Of a DNA stretch of 64,000 nt, positions 1-63,478 are shown one piece after another. This DNA comes from the human T2T-CHM13v2.0 reference genome, Homo sapiens: assembly GCF_009914755.1 (NCBI RefSeq), contig NC_060932.1; one strand, given 5' to 3'. The notes under the pieces are model-generated. The model saw only the letters and a program-made list of their open reading frames with translations. It had not been told where the DNA came from and did no database searches. The translations under genes and the position numbers were made by a program. Every line of letters begins with the position of its first letter. The stretch's first letter is position 1.

Positions 1-1660
1 AAAACAAAAAATTCTACCAAAAAATTATTATAAGCAAATTGAATAAAGATGAAGGATTCAAAATCAAAATATAAAAATTAGTAACATTTCTATATACCAA
101 TAATGAAATAGTCAAAAAAGAAATCAAGAAAACAATTCCACTTAAAGTAGCTACCAGTAAATATATAAATATATTTTTTTCACCCATATACATATGAAAA
201 TACCTAGGAATAAATTTATACAAGGGAGTAAAATATATCTACAAGAAAAACTACAAAACAGTAATAAAAGAAATTGAAGAGGCCATAGACAAATGGAAAT
301 TCATTCTAAGCTCCTGGATCAGAAAAATGAATTTCATTAAAATAACCATACTACTCAAAACAATCTACAGATCCAGTGCAATCCTTACCAAAATACTATC
401 ATTTTTCACAGAATTAGAAAAAAAAATCTAAAATTTGTATAGAATCAAAAAAGAGCATAACTAGCCAAAGCATTACTGAGCAAAAAGAACAAAGCTGGAG
501 GTGTCACACTGACTTCAAAATATAGTACAAGTCTATAGTAACCAACACAGCATAATATTTATATACAAACAACACAGACCAATGAAATAGAATTAAAAAC
601 CCAGAAATGAATTCATATATTTACAGCCAACTGCTCTTCCACACAGCTGTCAAGAACATACAATGGGGAAAGAACACTCTCTCCTATAAATTGAGCTGGG
701 AAAAGTCAACTGAAAGAAGAATGAAACTTGACTCCCATCCCTCATCAAATACAAAATCAACTCAGGATAGATTAAACCTGACACTATGAAACTACTAGAA
801 GAAAAGATAAGGACAACTCTTCAGAAATTGGTCTAGGCAAAGAATTTATGGCTAAAACCTCCAAAGCTTAAGCCACTAAAACACAATGGGATAAATGGGA
901 CTATATTAAACTACAAAGCTTCTACACAGCAAAAGAAACAATCAACATGGTGAAGAGACAAACTCTAAAATGGGGAAGCAAACCGGGCAAGGTTGCTGAC
1001 GCCTATAATCCCAGCACTTTGGGAGGCCACGGCAGGTGGATCACCCGAAGTTAGGAGTTTGAGACCTGCCTGGCCAACATGGTGAAACCACATCTCTACT
1101 AAAGATTCAAAAATTAGCCAGGCATAGTGGTGGGTGCCTGTAATTCCAGCTACTTGGGAGGTTGAGGCAGGAGAATCACTTGAACCCAGGAGTCAGAGGC
1201 TGCAGTGAGCTGAGATTGCGCCACTGCACTCCACTCTGGGCAACAGAATGGGACGCCATCTCAAAAAATAAATAAATAAATAAATAAAATGGGGAAACAT
1301 ATTTGCAAACTACTTAATCATCTTACAGGGTACTAATATCCAAAATATACAAGGAAGTCAGGTAAGTCAACAGTAAACACAAAATAATCTTATTAAAAAT
1401 GGACAAAGGACATGAATAGACACTTCTCCAGAAAAGATACACAGATGGCCAACAAGTATATTTAAAAATGCTCAGCATCTCTAATCATCAGGGAAATGCA
1501 AATCATAATCACAATGAGAAATTTTCTTACCCCACTTAGAATGGCTATTATTAAAAAGAAAAAAATAGAGTTACAATTATGTGGAGAAAAGAAAACAAAC
1601 AATGTTGGTGGAAATATGAATTAGTAAAATCACTATGAAGAACTGTGTGGAGGTTCCTCA
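1..1660 (+). mobile_element. Old L1 (L1M/L1PB-like) ORF2 3' region, decayed, interrupted by an Alu
   Basis: A-rich sequence with recognisable L1 ORF2 motifs (GCAATCTACAGATCCAGTGCAATCC, AAGAACAAAGCTGGAGG, GAAATGCAAATCATAATCACAATGAGA); many stop codons; end approximate. Confidence 0.85.
981..1285 (+). mobile_element. Alu (AluS-like) inserted into L1
   Basis: Dimeric Alu with (AAAT)n tail; TSD AAAATGGGGAAGCA (967-980) / AAAATGGGGAAACA (1286-1299). Confidence 0.95.
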
Positions 1661-11078: not shown

Positions 11079-13312
11079 AAAACTCACCTATTTTAAGTGT
11101 AACATGAAAGCTTTTTAAAAAATATTTTGCTTGCTATCTATTAAAAACTGTAAGGGTTCATTTTTCTGTATTTTTAGAATTTATAGTTTCAAATAGGATG
11201 AAAAAATGTATTTTGACTATCTCTTGTTTTTCTAATAATTTTCTTCTTTTTTTATACTCTGTATTCTGAAGTAAATATATTATGTCTAAAATGAAGATGA
11301 TTTGTTGTACTTTTATTTTCTCCTCATTAAAGTAAATTATGAAGTTATAAAATTGACATTTTGCCTTTGATTCTCAACATCATAGACTACTTCTATATGT
11401 ATTGTTTCTTAAAATATTCATAAATAAATTATGCTAAAACACTAGAAAATAAATACGGACCTTTAAAGTCATTAAGAATCATAATGCCATAAACAATTAC
11501 ACCACAATTAAAATTATAATCCAACCTAATATATTTTCTTCTACATTTAATATTTGGAACATTTTTATAAAGATTTACACAAACAATGGAATCAAAGTAT
11601 TAAATATTTTTCATTTACAAAATTCAAGGGCAGAGTCAACACTAAATAATATATTTAAGTCTATAAAAAGGTAGAAACTGAACTTCACATTCCATATCAC
11701 CAATTCTATTTTCTGCACCATTACTTCTGCTTTTTGTTCCTTCTTTGAGAGCTTATATTCTTCTAAGGTACTTGTCTATTTCCATTATTTCCCTTTCTCC
11801 TAATTCTCCAAACAGCTCTCCTTTCATTTGTTTATTTTATTATTTTACCTCTGGTTATTTTTCAAATTCATGTCATCTTAAATTTACTGAGACTTAAAAT
11901 AGAATTTCAACACATTTTTTAGCTAATTTTCCTAACTGCATTTTGTTTACCACCTTATACGATTATTTGAAGATACATACAAATTATTTTTTTTCTTATT
12001 TAGTCAATTGTGAATGGTGTTTCAGGCTTCTAGTTAGCCTGTAAATTGATCAAGATTCTTCTTTATTTCCTTCATTTAGTTCCAGATAGCTATTCAAAGC
12101 TTTCTTTCTAATTTTTAACTTGAGCATTCATTTCATATAATGAGTATTACCTGCTAGCTGTTCCTGAAATAAATGGGGGCAAATCTGGAATTATACATAA
12201 TCTCACTTGCGGAATTTAATTTCAGTATAACCGTTCATTGTAACTTTTGAAGCAAATTATGTCCAGTCTCTTTATCAGGTGTGACTCTCTTTCACAATAG
12301 CAGAAAATTTCCCACATCGTGGAGAAATCTCATTTCATTGCTAACTTTCAATTTGACACAGCAACTGGGATTCTCATCATAGTTCACTGTTAACATTTAA
12401 TCATCAGCAATAGAATTTGATTGTTCCAGCTTTTCATGCCTCAGCCAATGTGACTAATAAATGCAAGTAGAGTTTAGACTAAAAGTTATGACACTGATGT
12501 TTAATTTCTTAATTTGAAGCTTCCAATAGGTGTTTGGCATTTTACTGCTTTATCACAGTTGTGTTACAGTGTGCTGAGATACTGATTATCTCATCCTTTT
12601 CAGTAAGATCCCCTGCATGAGTTGTCTCTACTCAAGTGCAGTCTCAGTTTGTTTGTTTGTTTGTTTTTTAGATTGAGCTCTATAAATGTTATCAGATTCT
12701 ATATTTGTCAACATTTTGAAAATGTTGAAAAAACTGTTATATATTATTGTCATCAGATTTTTATACAGGCTATACAATACCCATGTCTCCATGGATACAA
12801 ATTGATTTAAAGTTAGAATCATTGTCATACATAGAAAGTTTTCTGCATTAATCATTAGCCATACGGAGCAGCATTAAATATCTGCCCATTTCCTAAGGAC
12901 TAAAGAAAACATAGATATACCCAAATTTGGTCTTTACGTTTATATAAATATTCACCAACAGTAGATAAGAATTCTCAATGAGGTAACCCAGTGAGAACAT
13001 TCATCATCAATAATCTGATTGTCTTCACTGATGGATAGGAGGATGCTGACTGGTTGAGGCATAAGGGTCACTAACTCAATGTCCTTGACTAAAAGAGCAG
13101 GTAACTAGTTGCACTGAGATGTCATTACAAAAACATTAAATGTTTACTATCATTGCTATGCTGAAATAAATACATATATAATAAATAAATCAGTAAGAGC
13201 ACTACTCATATATGCAAAATATATGTAATATATATTTATCTTTAGCTTTGGGGTGACAGAATTTTTAAAAAATGTTTTTTATTATCAATAAAGTCAAACA
13301 AAATGTAATGTC

Positions 13313-13686: not shown

Positions 13687-14239
13687 ATGTCTCAAAAGAC
13701 TTTTTAGGCCACACATTCTCTAGAGTCTAAATATTTCAAAAGTTAAAAATTAAATGTAACATGCTTCAAGCATTTTCTTCTTGTTTGGAACCAACTATAC
13801 CCCACAGTTAATGGGTGCAACTTCAGAATTGTAATATTCATTACATTATAATTCTTCAACTTTATACTTAGTCATTATTGTATTATAAAAATTTTAACAA
13901 GTTATATCAGCTGATTTCAAGTGAACTGGGGAAAGCTTAATGATCTAAAATTAAATGATTAAAGTTTAAAACAAAGCAGAATCACTCTAATAGGAATTGA
14001 GTAATTTAGTATTATTAAGCATTTTTATGGGCTACTTAGCCATTTTAAAATCTATGATTGTTTTGTTGTTGTGTTCAGAATACATTGTATGACACACAGG
14101 CTCAAAATGAAGTACATTATTTGTGAAGATTTCTTCATAACAATTCATTTTAAGTAATGTTATTACATTTACACTTGTTTAAAACACATTGGGATTCATA
14201 GCAAATAGTGACTCCAATTACATTTTACAAAATATATGA

Positions 14240-14535
14240 GGCCAGGCACCCTGGCTCACACCTGTAATTCCAGCACTTTGGGAGACCCAGGTGGGCAAAT
14301 CACTTGAGGCCAGGAGTTTGAGACCAGCCTGGCCAACATAATGAAACCCTGTCTCTACTAAAAATGAAAATATTAACTAGATGTGCTGGCACACCCCTGT
14401 AATTCCAGCTACTCTGGAGGATTAGGCATGAGAATCGCTTGAACCCAGGAAGCAGAGGTTGCAGTGAGCTGAGATCCTGCCATTGCATCTAGCCTGGGCA
14501 ACAGAGCAAGACTCTGTCTCAAAAAAAAAAAAAAA
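14240..14535 (+). mobile_element. Alu (AluS-like)
   Basis: GGCCAGGCACCCTGGCTCACACCTGTAATTCC... through the poly(A) tail. Confidence 0.95.
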
Positions 14536-15327: not shown

Positions 15328-15728
<401 letters not shown>

Positions 15729-19814: not shown

Positions 19815-20133
19815 TGCCCAAGAGCAGTGGCTCACGCCTGTAATCCCAGGACTTTGGGAAGCCGAGGTGGGTGGATTGCCTGCGGTCAGGAGTTCGAGAC
19901 CAGTCTGGCCAACATGGTGAAACCCGTCTCTACCAAAAATACAAAAAAAAAAAAAAAAAAAAAATTAGCCAGGCATGGTGGCACTTGCCTGTAATCCCAG
20001 CTACTCAGGAGACTGAATCAATGGAATTGCTTGAACCAGGGAGGTGGAGGTTGCAGTGAGCCAAGATTACACCATTGTACTCCAGCCTGGGTGACAGAGC
20101 GAGACTCCATTTCAGAGGAAAAAAAGGAAAAAG
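19815..20133 (+). mobile_element. Alu (AluS-like) with an expanded internal A-tract
   Basis: Perfect 18-bp TSD AAAAGAAATACAGAGATA (19797-19814 / 20134-20151); about 21 A in the linker. Confidence 0.95.
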
Positions 20134-20477
20134 AAAAGAAATACAGAGATAGAAAATGCCATTAGCAAAACTGAGCCTCTGGAAACTTCTAATGACAAAT
20201 TTTCCAATTCACTTTTCCAAATTAATTGGCAGTGTTGGTATGGTGACAGAGAGAGCAAGATATGGAACAGAAAGCCTATAGATTAAAAGAATCTTAAAGA
20301 CTCCATAACTGATTACAAATTATGAACCTTTTTTTGGCTCCAGTTTCCAGCAAATATTTTGTAATTTACATAATGAAATTTGTAGGACAATTAGAAATTT
20401 GATTACTAACCAAAGATACTGATATTAAATAGTTGTCAATTTATAGATGTATGAATGCCTTGCCATTGTGTTTTATT

Positions 20478-20770
20478 TTTATTTTATTTTTTTGAGATGT
20501 AGTTTTGCTCTTGTTGCCTAGGCTGGAGTGCAATGACTCAACGTCGGCCCACTGCAACCTTGCTTCCCAGGTTCAAGCGGTTCTCCTGCCTCAGCCTCCA
20601 AAGTAGCTGGGATTACAGGCATGTGCCGCCATGCCCAGCTCATTTTTCATATTTACTAGAGACGGGGTTTCACCATGTTAGCCAGGCTGTTCTCGAACTC
20701 ATGACCTGGTGATCCACCCACCTCGGCCTCCCAAAGTGCTGGGATTACAGGTGTAAGCCACCGCCTGGCC
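20478..20770 (-). mobile_element. Alu (AluS-like)
   Basis: Antisense Alu; TSD-like TGTGTTTTATTTTTT / TGTCTTTTATTTTTT. Confidence 0.93.
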
Positions 20771-21298
20771 TGTCTTTTATTTTTTAAATAACATTTATGT
20801 TTTAAAGATACATCCTGATGAAACACTCTCCAATACATTTTTCTGTGAGATTTGCTTTAAAATAATAGCTGCAAGGAATGTGGTGGATATCATGAAATAA
20901 GATTGGTGTGAGTTGATGACTGTGCAAGCTGGATGTTGTTATAGAGGAGGAACAATTACACTATTGCAGATTTGTGCATATGTTTACATTTGGTTAATGT
21001 ATATTTCATATACTTAACAGATATATGTGATGCATGTTTAATGTAATATGTTTAAAATAAAAATTAAAACAAATATCAAAGAATCATCCTTTCTAGAGAA
21101 ATAAAGGTATGACACAAAACATAATCCAAAGTAAAGAGTTTCAAGATAAGCAAAGCTATATAAAATCAAGTAAAATATGGCAAGCTATAGTTCAATGAAC
21201 TTGACAATATTGAAATGATTGACGACTTGCTTATTTTTATTATTAACACAATCTTCCCAATCACATAATAACACATTTTTGTCATAGTCTTGTATTTC

Positions 21299-21348
21299 TA
21301 ATTCTTCTTCAAACCCCACATTCATTTTTTCCTCCCTCAAGTTTAAAG
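21299..21348 (+). repeat. 50-bp direct repeat, copy 1 (copy 2 at 23895-23944)
   Basis: TAATTCTTCTTCAAACCCCACATTCATTTTTTCCTCCCTCAAGTTTAAAG is identical at both positions. Confidence 0.97.
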
Positions 21349-21708
21349 TTGTGCAAGGGCTAACTTTTCTTTCACATCAGAGTTTTCAGAATGTTCTTTT
21401 CTTTCATGCATCATCTTTTCTCAGTGTTACAGTTGTCACTGCATATTGATCTCTATTGTAAAAGCTTGCTAGTTTCTTTTCTTTTCTTAAGCTGTGTTCC
21501 CCTCCACTGTATCCTGCAGCAACCCTTTCTACTCATCATAGCATTGGTTATTTAATTGCTAGGATCAAACTTCTTAGTTTTGATCCACTAAGAAAAATAT
21601 ATTTTTGCCTTTCATAGTAATATTATTCTGTGACACTTAAGTCACATTTCTAAATGTATTTAGCCTCAGATACATGCCAATAAAATAATTTATTGATTAT
21701 GGTTAAAA
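21345..21708 (+). repeat. 364-bp inverted repeat, left arm
   Basis: Reverse complement of 23531-23894; manual comparison found one mismatch (21625 A vs 23614 G). Confidence 0.97.
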
Positions 21709-22524
21709 ATGTTTTTTCTTTGGATTTTTCCAGACAATAGCCATTCATTAATTTATGAAAGTCATCAATCTTTATACCAACAGATTTCTAAGCTGTGGAA
21801 CAATTTCCCCTCTTGAAAAAATTAAGATCTTTCTAGTATCAACTTACTGGTTTTATGCTAACTCAGATAAAGAATTCTGCTGTGATTTTAGAAATGGTAA
21901 GTCAAAAATTTAAGTATTCTTTCTTTTAAGGTCAGAGACAACATAAATTTTAAGATGCTCCAAAGGGTAGCACTTTAATACAAATTTCAATAAATGTCAC
22001 TAAACGTACTTGAATCAATTTAAACATTTTTTGACTTTGTATTTATACTCTGTGGTAATTTAATATGTATTTTACATAGACAAGTTGATAACAGAATATT
22101 CTATAAAGATTTTTGACCAAGTCTGAGCCATGGAAGTTTGACTGTTCAGTCACCCTAAGTACACTGTTGTAACAGAAACTGACAGTTGTTTTTATTGATT
22201 ATAGATGTCATTAATTGAATGACATCAAAATTCTGTTTTTTGGTTTTGTTTTGTTTTTTTTTTCCTGAGTGTGCCATTTCTTTCTTGCTATGTTACTTTC
22301 TTTTTCACCACCAACCTTCTATCCCTTGGACATACATACAACTTCTTGAAGCTATTTCATCTTCTGTAAGGCAGAATTAATTCTGGTCTCCTCATCAATG
22401 AATTGACAGGAGCATGCTCAATAAATTGTGGCTGTTATTGTTGTTGTTGTTCATTAGCATTTGTCTTTAATATGCACTTCTGTAAATGCCCAATGTTCTT
22501 CTAGACTTGCAATCCTTACAGAGA

Positions 22525-23025
22525 CTGGTTTATTCATTTTATATTGCGGTTTTAACAAACCATCCCCAAATTTAGCAGCTTAAAACAACACAGTATTTTA
22601 TCTTATAGTTCTGGCAATCAGATGTCTGAAATGGGTTTTATTGAGCTAATATCAAGGTGTTGACAGGGCTGCATTCCCTTCTGCAGGCTTTATGGGGAAT
22701 CAGTTTCCTTGTGCTTTTCAGCTTCTAGAGACCATCGGTATTCCTTGAATAATGACCCCAGTACTCCATCCATGGCCCTTTCCTCAACCTAGCAGTGCAA
22801 GGTCTTCAAACCTCTCTCTATCTCTGACACTCCTTCCTCCCTTTTACAGTTATAAGGATCATTGTGATTACATTGTGCCAATCTGGCAAATCTAATAATC
22901 TCCCTATCTCAAACATTTTAACTTAATCTCATGTGCAAAGTCTTTTTGACAAGACAGTAATATATTCAGAGATTTTGAGGATTAGGGTGTGTATATTTTG
23001 TAGAGCCATTATTCTGCAGGTCGCA
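22525..23025 (-). mobile_element. MLT1 (MLT1C/D-like) MaLR LTR inside the inverted-repeat spacer
   Basis: AAATTTAGCAGCTTAAAACAACAC...ATCAAGGTGTTGACAGGGCTGCATTCC...TGTGATTACATTG...TAATCTCCCTATCTCAA are typical antisense MLT1 motifs. Confidence 0.8.
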
Positions 23026-23530
23026 CTAGTTTTTCATTTAATAATTTTAAAAAACCAACTACTGAGTTTTTTTGTTAGTCAAATGTCTAGATTATGGTCT
23101 CTTCAGACTATTTGCTCTCTCTACGTGTGTATTCTTTTCTATATTAGTTATTTCTGCATGTCACATTCTATATCATTGTAAGGCTTTTCTTAAGTAGAGG
23201 TAAACTTGTGGCATGGTTAATTCTACTCAGTCATTTAAACCTATTTGACTTAATGCAAATGTCAACTTTTCTAAGCCACATTTTATTTATGTGTAAAAAT
23301 GAAAACAAAAAATGTGAGATAATGCACACAAAATGATAATAATACCTAGAATGAGAAATACTTAATAAAGTTAGCTATTAAAATTATTATTGTTATTGAT
23401 AGTATCTGGTGGGCAAATAGGACCTTCTATTGTTCAATTTCATTACACTTGCCATGTAAGGAAATTAAACAATTTTATTTTTGCTTTAAGATAAAGTATT
23501 AAAATCAGCTTGTCATTAGGTTACTGTCAA

Positions 23531-23894
23531 TTTTAACCATAATCAATAAATTATTTTATTGGCATGTATCTGAGGCTAAATACATTTAGAAATGTGACTT
23601 AAGTGTCACAGAAGAATATTACTATGAAAGGCAAAAATATATTTTTCTTAGTGGATCAAAACTAAGAAGTTTGATCCTAGCAATTAAATAACCAATGCTA
23701 TGATGAGTAGAAAGGGTTGCTGCAGGATACAGTGGAGGGGAACACAGCTTAAGAAAAGAAAAGAAACTAGCAAGCTTTTACAATAGAGATCAATATGCAG
23801 TGACAACTGTAACACTGAGAAAAGATGATGCATGAAAGAAAAGAACATTCTGAAAACTCTGATGTGAAAGAAAAGTTAGCCCTTGCACAACTTT
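23531..23894 (-). repeat. 364-bp inverted repeat, right arm
   Basis: Reverse complement of 21345-21708. Confidence 0.97.
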
Positions 23895-23944
23895 TAATTC
23901 TTCTTCAAACCCCACATTCATTTTTTCCTCCCTCAAGTTTAAAG
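23895..23944 (+). repeat. 50-bp direct repeat, copy 2
   Basis: Identical to 21299-21348 and abuts the right inverted arm. Confidence 0.97.
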
Positions 23945-23966
23945 CTCTATACAGAGTTATATCTGT

Positions 23967-24116
23967 TATATATATGTATGTATGTATATATATATGTATA
24001 TGTGTATATGTATATATATGTATATGTGTATACGTATATATATGTATATGTGTATATGTATATATATATATATGTGTATACGTGTATATATATATGTATA
24101 TGTGTATATATATATA
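23967..24116. repeat. Compound (TA)n/(TG)n alternating purine-pyrimidine microsatellite
   Basis: About 150 bp of TATATATGTATGTATGTATATATATATGTATATGTG... Confidence 0.95.
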
Positions 24117-24453
24117 AATTCCACCTTCCCCACTCCCCAGTGGCAGAAGAGTTTATCATGATCCTCATGATCATGTACATCATCTATATTTGTTGAAGTG
24201 TTATCCATATAACAATGAGACTTTTATATTCACAAGGTGATATTTTCCAAAATACTAAATTGATAATATGGGCCACTAAATAACGTTATTTCATTATATT
24301 TGTTACTCTAATATAATATCTATGTCATCTGAATAGTAGCTTCTGAAATGACTGTGTGAGTTTTCCTGTGGATAGCAGAAAACATGAGGTAAATTGCACG
24401 GTATCTGCATAAGGAGAGATAAGTAAAGACACTGGCATATGATCAGTGAGAAG

Positions 24454-24904
24454 TGTCGGGCCTCTGGGCCCAAGCCAAGCCATTGCATCCCCTGTGACTT
24501 GCACGTATACGCCCAGATGGCCTGAAGTAACTGAAGAATCACAAAAGAAGTGAATATGCCCTGCCCCACCTTAACTGATGACATTCCACCACAAAAGAAG
24601 TGTAAATGGCCATTCCTTGCCTTAACTGATGACATTACCTTGTGAAAGTCCTTTTCCTGGCTCATCCTGGCTCAGAAAGCACCCCCACTGAGCACCTTGC
24701 GACCCCCACTCTTGCCCGCCAGAGAACAAACCCCCTTTGACTGTAATTTTCCTTTACCTACCCAAATCCTATAAAACGGCCCCACCCTTATCTTCCTTTG
24801 CTGACTCTTTTCAGACTCAGCCCACCTGCACCCAGGTGAAATAAACAGCCATGTAGCTCACACAACGCCTGTTTGGTGGTCTCTTCACACGGACGCACAT
24901 GAAA
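24454..24904 (+). promoter_or_regulatory. 5' LTR7 (LTR7up-like) promoter/enhancer
   Basis: TGTCGGGCCTCTG...GCACATGAAA; ACAAAAGAAG at 24541-24550 and 24591-24600; TATAAAA 24770-24776; AATAAA 24840-24845. Confidence 0.93.
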
Positions 24905-25056: not shown

Positions 25057-25564
25057 AGCCTCTTCTTACTCTCTTCTCCAACCTCTCTCACTGTCCCTCA
25101 ACCACTTTCTCCTTTCCACTCTTCAATCTCTCCCTTCTCTTAATTTCAATTCCTTTCATTTTCTGGGAGAGACAAAGGAGACACGTTTTATCCGTGGACC
25201 CAAAACTCCGGCGCAGGTCACAGACTGGGAAGGCAGCCTTCCCTTGGTGTTTAATCATTGCAGGGGCACCTTTCTGATTATACACCCACGTTTCAAGGGT
25301 GTCAGACCACGCAGGGACGCCTGCCTTGGTCCTTCACCCTTAGCGGCAAGTCCCGCTTTTCTGGGGAAGGGGCAAGTACCCCAACCCCTTCTCTCCTTGT
25401 CTCTACCCCTTCTCTGCCTTTCTGGGAGAGGGGCAAGTACCCCTCAACCCCTTCGCCTTCACCCTTAGCGGCAAGTCCCACTTTTCTGGGAGAGGGGCAA
25501 GTACCCCTCAACCCCTTCTCCTTCACCCTTAGTGGCAAGTCCTGCTTTTCTACGGGGCAAGAAC

Positions 25565-25899
25565 CCCCAATCCCTTATTTCCGTGCCCCAACCTCTTATC
25601 TCTGCACCCCAATCCCTTATTTCCATGTCCCACCTCTTATCTCTGTGCCCCAATCCCTTATTTCCGTGCCCCAACCTCTTATCTCTGTGCCCCAATCCCT
25701 TATTTCCGTGCCCCAACCTCTTATCTCTGCGCCCCAATCCCTTATTTCTGCACCCCGACCTCTTATCTCTGTGCCCCAATCCCTTATTTCTGTGCCCCAA
25801 CCTCGTATCTCTGCGCCCAAATCCCTTATTTCCGTGTCCCAACCTCATATCTCTGTTCCCCAATCCCTTATTTCTGCACCCTGACCTCTTATCTCTCAG
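25565..25899 (+). repeat. HERV-H leader VNTR: about 16 x 21-bp units forming about 8 x 42-bp dimers
   Basis: Alternating CCCCAATCCCTTATTTCCGTG and CCCCAACCTCTTATCTCTGTG variants. Confidence 0.93.
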
Positions 25900-25999
25900 C
25901 CCGAACCCCTTTTCCCACTTTTCTGGAAGGTAAGAACCCCCGAACCCCTTCCCTCCATTTCTCTACTCTCTCTTTTCTCTAGGCTTGCTTCCTTCATTA

Positions 26000-29420: not shown

Positions 29421-30040
29421 GCCCCGGTCTCATTCCAGACACCAGACCAACTTAGACTGTGCCCCTAAAAAACTTGTCTTCCCTGCTATCTTCTGTCTAG
29501 TCATACTCCTATTCACCGTTCCTAACTACTCATACATGCCCTGCTCTTGTTTACACTGCTGGTTTACACTGTTTTTCCAAGCCATCACAGCTGATATCTC
29601 CTGGTGCTATCCCCAAACTGCCACTCTTAACTCTTGAAGTAAATAAATAATCTTTGCTGGCAGGACTATGCTGAATCTCCTTAGGCACTCTCTAATCAGA
29701 TATCCTGAGTCGTCCCAATTCTTAAGACTTTTTATACCTGTTTTTCTCCTTCTGTTATTCCATTTAGTTTCTCAATTCATCCAAAACCGTATCTAGGCCA
29801 TCAGCAATCATTCTATAGGACAAATGTTTCTTCTAACATCCCCACAATATCACCCCTTACCACAAGACCTCCCCTCAGCTTAATCTCTCCCACTCTAGGT
29901 TCCCACGCTGCCCCTAATCCCGCTTGAAGCAGCCCTGAGAAACATCGCCCATTCTCTCTCCATACCACGCCCCAAAAATTTTTGCCGCCCCAAAACCTCA
30001 ACACTATTTTATTTTTCTTATTAATATAAGAAGGCAGGAA

Positions 30041-30491
30041 TGTCAGGCCTCTGAGCCCAAGCCAAGCCATCACATCCCCTGTGACTTGCATGTATATGCC
30101 CAGATGGCCTGAAGTAACTAAAGAATCACAAAAGAAGTGAATGTGACCTGCCCCACCTTAACTGATGACATTCCACCACAAAAGAAGTGTAAATGGCCGG
30201 TCCTTGCCTCAAGAGATGACATTACCTTGGGAAAGTCCTTTTCCTGGCTCATCCTGGCTCAAAAAGCACCCCCACTGAGCACCTTGCAACCCCCACTCCT
30301 GCCCGCCAGAGAACAAACCCCCTTTGACTGTAATTTTCCTTTACCTACCCAAATCCTATAAAACGGCCCCACCCCTATCTCCCTTCGCTGACTCTTTTTG
30401 GACTCAGCCCACCTGCACCCAGGTGAAATAAACAGCCATGTTGCTCACACAAAGCCTGTTTGCTGGTCTCTTCACAGATACGCGCATGAAA
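30041..30491 (+). mobile_element. 3' LTR7 (polyadenylation LTR)
   Basis: TGTCAGGCCTCTGAGCC...GCGCATGAAA; AATAAA 30427-30432; about 30 differences from the 5' LTR by manual count. Confidence 0.96.

Positions 30492-31762: not shown

Positions 31763-32105
<343 letters not shown>

Positions 32106-41673: not shown

Positions 41674-42092
<419 letters not shown>

Positions 42093-63153: not shown

Positions 63154-63478
<325 letters not shown>

What the first reader, a model, noticed from the sequence alone, without database searches (positions are those of the whole stretch)
21299..23944. Near-perfect inverted plus direct duplication (A-B-spacer-B'-A): probable template-switch scar and potentially invertible 1.8-kb segment
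Seen: 21345-21708 is the reverse complement of 23531-23894 (364 bp, one mismatch found), and a 50-bp block is identical at 21299-21348 and 23895-23944. The arms do not resemble any repeat I recognise. A and B overlap by AAAG microhomology at the left junction. Identity is far higher than between the neighbouring HERV-H LTRs (about 30 differences in 451 bp), so the event is either very young or homogenised by gene conversion. Inference: FoSTeS/MMBIR-type replication template switching copied A forward and B backward. The inverted arms could then support recurrent inversion of the 1822-bp spacer (21709-23530), which contains an MLT1 LTR.
Basis: partly seen in the sequence, partly recalled or inferred. 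Interest (0 to 1): 0.8.

Follow-up and report, generated by a model that had tools for sequence, protein, structure and literature searches.

The report
Young inverted-plus-direct duplication scar, chr8
A gene-poor stretch of human chromosome 8 carries a real, almost perfect 364-base inverted copy plus a 50-base direct copy of neighbouring DNA, most likely an ordinary scar of one faulty break repair or replication event beside a fragile TA-rich repeat.

Summary
21345-21708 is the reverse complement of 23531-23894 (364 nt, 1 mismatch). 21299-21348 equals 23895-23944 (50 of 50). AAAG is shared at the left junction. These are the only self-matches of 94% identity or more in the 64-kb window.

The arms, both flanks and most of the spacer are single-copy in the T2T-CHM13 assembly, and no ORF inside the structure exceeds 84 aa. 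A transposon origin is therefore unlikely.

The two copied stretches abut on their template. The patch ends 22 bp from the window's only TA/TG microsatellite, which folds into a long hairpin. I read this as one locally templated repair or replication accident. It fits the short-range "inverted duplication" class that Sudmant et al. 2015 found to be the commonest inversion-associated variant.

The MMBIR label is weakly supported: only 0 of 3 or 1 of 3 new junctions show microhomology of 2 nt or more, depending on which copy is ancestral. Estimated age is about 1-3 My, with a wide interval.

No ape or pangenome sequence was available, so ancestral state, polymorphism and spacer flipping are untested. 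Ordinary; modest interest.

The parts
21299..21348 (+). A, left copy of the 50-bp direct repeat
   Evidence: 50 of 50 identical to 23895-23944
21345..21708 (+). B, left inverted arm (364 nt); its first 4 nt, AAAG, are also the last 4 nt of A
   Evidence: Reverse complement of 23531-23894 with 1 mismatch at 21625; in the genome only at this locus
21709..23530 (.). Spacer S, 1822 nt, between the arms; its orientation relative to the ancestor is unknown
   Evidence: single-copy except for 22519-23017
22519..23017 (.).
   Evidence: 42 partial genome matches at 68-80% identity, all to this stretch; 1637 first-look candidates
23531..23894 (-). B', right inverted arm
23895..23944 (+). A, right copy of the 50-bp direct repeat
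23967..24116 (.). TA/TG microsatellite 22 bp right of the structure; the likely break or fork-stall site
   Evidence: The only such array in the window. As single-stranded DNA it folds into a long hairpin: -23.6 kcal/mol, z = -3.0, 1 of 200 shuffles as good

Best explanation
This is a passive structural scar from a single, evolutionarily recent DNA repair or replication accident. A break or collapsed fork arose beside the hairpin-forming TA/TG microsatellite. It was patched with about 410 nt copied from two abutting stretches of one nearby template 1.8-2.2 kb away: 364 nt read backwards (B') and 50 nt read forwards (A). My preferred mechanics are inferred, not shown. After resection, the long 3' single-stranded tail served as template for both broken ends. 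Its own 3' end snapped back and copied B, with the spacer as the fold-back loop. The other end primed next to it and copied A. The two extended ends were then joined. That would explain why the two template tracts meet at 21345-21348. The mirror-image event (right copy ancestral, patch at 21298|21709) and a version in which the spacer was flipped in the same event are equally compatible. The result has no evident function. It leaves a 364-nt, 99.7%-identical inverted pair that could in principle flip the 1.8-kb spacer by homologous recombination.
For: The structure is exact and unique in the window. Arms, A, both flanks and most of the spacer are single-copy in the assembly, although the same kind of search detects 68%-identical repeat copies for the spacer's repeat. 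There is no Rfam hit and no ORF longer than 84 aa inside. The two copied tracts abut, with a 4-nt overlap. Both are near-identical to their templates: 1 of 364 and 0 of 50 differences. The right end lies 22 bp from the only TA/TG array in 64 kb, which forms a hairpin. By my own post hoc arithmetic, the chance that one point falls that close is about 0.3%. The geometry matches published classes. [quoted passage not shown] Fold-back spacers measured 766-70,466 bp, median 3,428 (PMC3907307, passages).
Against: No outgroup or second human haplotype was available, so one event, its direction and its age are inferences. Junction microhomology, which MMBIR or fold-back priming predicts, is absent or scarce: 0, 0, 0 nt, or 4, 0, 0-1 nt. 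The spacer/arm junction has only an imperfect 2-of-3 match, against 2-8 bp in 13 of 21 junctions in PMC3907307. Published snap-back or templated patches at breaks are mostly tens of nucleotides, not 364 (abstract of PMC11724301 in the listings). The link to the microsatellite was noticed after the fact.
Confidence: 0.65

Rival explanations
1. The duplication is old, predating the human-chimpanzee split or earlier, and its arms are kept nearly identical by gene conversion, as in chromosomal palindromes.
For: One mismatch in 364 nt gives a wide interval of 0.07-15 My at 0.5e-9 per site per year, a rate I recalled. The 50-bp repeat is too short to date. Inverted arms 1.8 kb apart can convert each other.
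Against: The 50-bp direct copy is also perfect, although such a short repeat is a poor conversion substrate. Arm divergence (0.27%) is about 1/25 of that of the neighbouring LTR pair (6.8%).
Confidence: 0.12
2. The structure arose in two or more separate events, for example an inverted dispersed duplication of B followed later by a 50-bp duplication of A, or the reverse.
For: None specific. Complex sites can build up stepwise.
Against: The template tracts of A and B meet within 4 nt, the copies lie directly adjacent, and both are near-perfect. Independent events would need two coincidences.
Confidence: 0.08
3. A foreign or mobile fold-back element (B-S-B', with 364-bp terminal inverted repeats) inserted into X-A-Y, with a 50-bp target-site duplication.
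For: The layout direct repeat / inverted arm / spacer / inverted arm / direct repeat mimics a transposon with a target duplication. Both ends of the insert are the same B terminus.
Against: The arms and most of the spacer have no other copy in the genome. No ORF exceeds 84 aa. From recall, a 50-bp duplication is far longer than the 2-10 bp of DNA transposons. There is no poly-A at either end. The spacer carries an old resident repeat.
Confidence: 0.05
4. Assembly artefact in the T2T-CHM13 sequence.
For: None found. It cannot be tested without reads.
Against: The whole 2.6-kb structure is far shorter than the long reads such assemblies are built from (recalled), and both junction sets are clean.
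Confidence: 0.02

Closest known systems
Short-range inverted duplications ('Inverted Dup' / inv-dup) of the 1000 Genomes structural-variant map (Sudmant et al. 2015, PMC4617611)
   Same: A duplicated stretch under 1 kbp (364 nt), in inverted orientation, placed within 5 kbp of the other copy (1.8 kb), with no sign of retrotransposition.
   Different: This one carries an additional 50-bp direct copy beside the inverted one. Whether it is polymorphic in people is unknown.
Duplication-flanked inversions and interspersed duplications (dupINV/INVdup, iDUP) of Collins et al. 2017 (PMC5338099)
   Same: A segment bounded by an inverted duplicate of one flank. The paper attributes these to MMBIR/FoSTeS or to synchronous repair of several breaks.
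   Different: That survey used long-insert libraries to map large variants; this structure is 2.6 kb. Whether the spacer was inverted at formation cannot be told here.
Fold-back inverted duplications with a spacer (Hermetz et al. 2014, PMC3907307)
   Same: Inverted copies separated by a single-copy spacer of kilobase size, interpreted as the loop of a snapped-back 3' tail after resection.
   Different: Those are megabase duplications with terminal deletions via a dicentric chromosome, with 2-8 bp of inverted microhomology. Here only 364 nt were copied, the end was rejoined locally, and there is no perfect microhomology.
Polymerase-theta-type templated insertions in cis (snap-back) and in trans (Kent et al. 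2016, PMC4912351; abstract seen in a search listing only)
   Same: One patch made of a piece copied from the end's own strand in reverse and a piece copied forward, then end joining.
   Different: From recall and from the abstract of PMC11724301, such insertions are usually a few to tens of nucleotides. The enzyme involved cannot be inferred from sequence.
Inversions mediated by inverted repeats (Giner-Delgado et al. 2019, PMC6748972; PMC13629690)
   Same: Highly identical inverted repeats flanking a short unique segment.
   Different: The arms (364 nt) are shorter than the 654 bp-24.2 kb of the NAHR set. No second orientation has been observed, and the locus was not found in the 612-region table.

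Membership tests
Short-range inverted duplication SV class (Sudmant 2015) | Duplicated stretch under 1 kbp in inverted orientation | tested here: met
   364 nt, reverse complement, 1 mismatch
Short-range inverted duplication SV class (Sudmant 2015) | [quoted passage not shown] | tested here: met
   1822 nt between the arms
Short-range inverted duplication SV class (Sudmant 2015) | Not a retrotransposition product | tested here: met
   No poly-A at either end of the copied block; arms single-copy
Short-range inverted duplication SV class (Sudmant 2015) | Segregates as a variant among people | not testable with these tools
   Only one human assembly is held. No hit for estimated hg19 positions in the one supplement file held for PMC4617611
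MMBIR/FoSTeS complex rearrangement | Several template switches to nearby templates within one event | tested here: inconclusive
   Every candidate ancestor needs three new junctions, with templates 1.8-2.2 kb away. A single event is inferred, not shown
MMBIR/FoSTeS complex rearrangement | Microhomology at the junctions | tested here: inconclusive
   0, 0, 0 nt if the left copy is ancestral; 4, 0, 0-1 nt if the right copy is
Fold-back inverted duplication (Hermetz 2014) | Single-copy spacer of about 0.8-70 kb between the inverted copies | tested here: met
   1822 nt, against 766-70,466 bp
Fold-back inverted duplication (Hermetz 2014) | Short inverted microhomology (2-8 bp) at the spacer/inverted junction | tested here: not met
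   0 nt perfect; only 2 of 3 positions beyond the arm pair
Fold-back inverted duplication (Hermetz 2014) | Terminal deletion or dicentric history | tested here: not met
   The sequence continues normally on both sides; the flanks are unique and contiguous in the chromosome
DNA transposon / fold-back element with terminal inverted repeats | Multiple copies in the genome | tested here: not met
   The arms match only this locus. The same kind of search found 68%-identical copies of the spacer's repeat
DNA transposon / fold-back element with terminal inverted repeats | Short target-site duplication of fixed length | tested here: not met
   The flanking direct repeat is 50 bp. The usual 2-10 bp figure is recalled
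DNA transposon / fold-back element with terminal inverted repeats | Transposase gene or a remnant of one | tested here: not met
   The longest stop-to-stop frame wholly inside is 84 aa; no protein-family search was run on it
Inverted-repeat-mediated (NAHR) invertible segment | Inverted repeats more than 90% identical flanking the segment | tested here: met
   99.7% over 364 nt
Inverted-repeat-mediated (NAHR) invertible segment | Both orientations observed | not testable with these tools
   No other haplotypes or ape genomes were available. Not found in Table S1 of PMC13629690 at my estimated hg38 position
Segmental duplication | At least 1 kb at 90% identity or more (recalled definition) | tested here: not met
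   The copies are 364 and 50 nt

The most novel reading that the evidence does not exclude
The 1.8-kb spacer toggles orientation in human populations through recombination between arms of only 364 nt (longest perfect tract 280 nt). That would make it one of the shortest repeat pairs known to drive recurrent inversion. Separately, the abutting forward and backward template tracts would be a rare germline record of two broken ends copying from one single-stranded tail.
Probability: 0.15. Interest if true: 0.45.

Novelty: new member of a known kind. Interest (0 to 1): 0.25.

Why it matters
The locus lies in a gene-poor region with no annotated gene within 100 kb on either side, and nothing suggests a function, so it matters little in itself. 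Its value is as a clean, datable example of the commonest but mechanistically least settled class of human inversion-associated variants. All junctions are readable to the base. The two template tracts meet at one point. A hairpin-forming microsatellite sits at the insertion edge. If the ape and pangenome states were added, it could show which junctions are new, and so whether such events need microhomology. It could also test whether 364-nt arms are enough for recurrent flipping.

Tried and rejected
**Transposon or terminal-inverted-repeat origin.** Rejected on copy number and the lack of ORFs.

**Structured RNA.** No Rfam family reached threshold in 20500-24800.

**Further pieces of the same event.** None found elsewhere in the window: the self-BLAST at 94% identity or more gives only the two known matches, and a word-size-7 self-BLAST of 20500-24800 adds only a 47-nt repeat inside the neighbouring LTR.

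**Using old repeats cut by the junctions to find the ancestral order.** This failed because all junction flanks are unique sequence.

**Inversion and variant catalogues.**
- PMC3961182 main text lists chr8 entries only near 2.2-2.3 Mb.
- PMC6748972 has no 'chr8' in the main text or in the 12 of 18 supplement files that were searched.
- PMC12350169 supplements give one unrelated number for T2T positions 115402-115406, and the file was cut when stored.
- PMC13721702 supplements have no chr8.
- PMC12058530 and PMC8755829 supplements are unreadable PDFs.
- PMC4617611 supplement gives no hit for estimated hg19 prefixes 11526-11531.
- PMC13629690: 'chr8' is absent because chromosomes are given as bare numbers. 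For prefixes 1142 and 1143, the only occurrence that falls in Table S1 is a length in a chr11 row. This is inferred from the order of the occurrences shown; the remaining occurrences were not seen.

**Not available.** Porubsky et al. 2022 (Cell) is not held.

Full report
**Observation.**
The repeat finder on 20500-24800 reports inverted arms 21342-21711 / 23528-23897 (370 nt, 99%). It also reports a direct pair 21296-21348 / 23892-23944 (53 nt, 98%). A base-by-base comparison fixes the strict cores. B is 21345-21708 against 23531-23894: 364 nt, one mismatch at 21625/23614, and perfect tracts of 280 and 83 nt. A is 21299-21348 = 23895-23944, 50 of 50 identical.

The order on the + strand is X - A - B - S (1822 nt) - B' - A - Y. 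At the left junction, AAAG (21345-21348) is both the end of A and the start of B. At the right junction, B' ends at 23894 and A starts at 23895.

A self-BLAST of the whole 64-kb window at 94% identity or more gives only these two matches. The other 11 of the 12 inverted pairs of 120 nt or more are 72-82% complementary. The feature is real and is not chance.

**What it is not.**
Searched against the window's own assembly (T2T-CHM13; the window is contig 8, 115382001-115446000), A plus B matches only itself, the inverted arm and the right A (3 matches, 2 first-look candidates). The left flank 20812-21298 and the right flank 24117-24436 match only themselves.

The spacer is unique except for 22519-23017. 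That stretch has 42 listed partial matches at 68-80% identity (1637 first-look candidates, 40 scored).

Because the same kind of search detects 68%-identical copies, a transposon family containing the arms should have been seen. The tool does warn that very common words are skipped. The longest stop-to-stop frame wholly inside the structure is 84 aa, no Rfam family matches, and there is no poly-A at the block's ends. A mobile-element origin is therefore unlikely.

**Anatomy of the junctions.**
The derived sequence has six adjacencies, and every linear ancestor containing X, A, B, S and Y once needs three new ones. I scored perfect microhomology for four candidate ancestors.
- Left copy ancestral (X-A-B-S-Y, patch B'+A inserted at S|Y): 0, 0, 0 nt.
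- Left copy ancestral with the spacer flipped in the event: 0, 0, 0 nt.
- Right copy ancestral (X-S-B'-A-Y, patch A+B inserted at X|S): 0, 4 (AAAG), 0 nt.
- Right copy ancestral with the spacer flipped: 1, 4, 0 nt.

Two junctions show an imperfect 2-of-3 match next to the breakpoint (21709-21711 / 23528-23530 and 21296-21298 / 23892-23894), which is not significant. The 'AAAG microhomology' therefore counts as a junction microhomology only if the right-hand copy is the original. The MMBIR/FoSTeS label, which predicts microhomology at most switches, is at best weakly supported.

The more telling feature is that the two template tracts (A forward, B backward) meet and overlap by 4 nt on the template, and that their copies lie side by side. 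By my own arithmetic, two independent copying events drawn from a 2-kb neighbourhood would meet within a few bases well under 1% of the time. This points to one event in which both pieces were read from the same template molecule.

**Context.**
The only TA/TG microsatellite in the window (23967-24116) begins 22 bp to the right of the structure. As single-stranded DNA it folds into a long hairpin: -23.6 kcal/mol against -17.2 +/- 2.1 for shuffles, z = -3.0, with 1 of 200 shuffles as good. Such arrays are known from general knowledge to stall forks and break. The chance that a given point falls that close to the single array is about 0.3% (my arithmetic, made after the fact).

**Proposed mechanism (inferred).**
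A break or collapsed fork arose at the edge of the microsatellite and was followed by kilobase-scale resection. The exposed 3' tail then served as template for both ends. Its own 3' end snapped back, leaving the spacer as the loop, and copied B for 364 nt. The other end primed beside it and copied A for 50 nt. The first synthesis stopped where it ran into the second, with 4 nt of overlap, and the two extended ends were joined. The mirror-image event is equally possible.

This combines two published ideas: fold-back priming with a spacer loop, and templated extension in cis and in trans at broken ends. Fold-back spacers measured 766-70,466 bp, median 3,428 bp (PMC3907307, passages read). For the second idea I saw only the abstracts of PMC4912351 and PMC11724301 in search listings.

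Two points count against it. There is no perfect inverted microhomology at the spacer/arm junction, against 2-8 bp in 13 of 21 junctions in PMC3907307. And the copied tract is much longer than the usual tens of nucleotides.

**Age.**
One difference in 364 nt, or 1 in 414 nt counting A, gives 2.4-2.75 My at 0.5e-9 per site per year, a rate I recalled. The Poisson 95% interval is about 0.06-15 My.

On a local scale, the arms (0.27%) are about 25 times less diverged than the neighbouring LTR pair. That pair spans 24450-24904 against 30038-30491: 455 columns, 30 mismatches and 1 gap, 6.8%.

The event is thus probably younger than the human-chimpanzee split, but an earlier origin or homogenisation by gene conversion is not excluded.

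**Comparison with what is known.**
Sudmant et al. 2015 (PMC4617611, passages) report that 54% of sequenced 1000 Genomes 'inversions' were inverted duplications. [quoted passage not shown] This locus meets those structural criteria (364 nt, 1.8 kb).

Collins et al. 2017 (PMC5338099, passages) list the related dupINV/INVdup and interspersed-duplication classes. They attribute them to MMBIR/FoSTeS or to synchronous repair of several breaks.

The extra 50-bp direct copy adds a junction to the basic pattern. It does not make this a new kind of event.

**Invertibility.**
Validated inversions have flanking repeats of 140 bp to 134 kb (PMC13629690, passages). The 24 NAHR inversions of Giner-Delgado et al. 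2019 have repeats of 654 bp to 24.2 kb (PMC6748972, passages). Arms of 364 nt are therefore plausible but short substrates.

I could not test orientation polymorphism, because no other human haplotype or ape sequence was available. Catalogue searches gave no hit. Several files were cut or unreadable, Porubsky et al. 2022 was not held, and my hg38 and hg19 positions are estimates. These negatives are weak.

**Verdict.**
This is a real, locus-specific, young inverted-plus-direct duplication of a known and common class. It has no sign of function. Its ancestral state and its polymorphism remain open. Interest is modest.

Noticed in passing
window 24450-24904 and 30038-30491: A direct repeat pair: 455 aligned columns, 93.2% identical, 30 mismatches and 1 gap.
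   Followed up: partly
window 23967-24116: A 150-nt TA/TG microsatellite (24-nt consensus period, 6.1 copies), the only one of its kind in the window. It forms a long hairpin as single-stranded DNA (z = -3.0).
   Followed up: yes
window 25330-25551 and 25565-25911: Two tandem arrays: 64-nt period with 3.5 copies, and 21/42-nt period with 8.3-14.9 copies. They lie inside the repeat-masked block right of the 5' LTR.
   Followed up: no
window 985-1289, 14239-14487, 15424-15689, 19947-20145, 31796-32103, 41761-41959, 63172-63415: A set of mutually inverted matches of 128-261 nt at 72-82% complementarity. They look like copies of one interspersed repeat family, Alu-like by size, but the name was not tested.
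   Followed up: no
window 22519-23017: An old interspersed repeat inside the spacer, with many genome copies at 68-80% identity. It lies well away from all junctions, so it says nothing about the ancestral order.
   Followed up: partly
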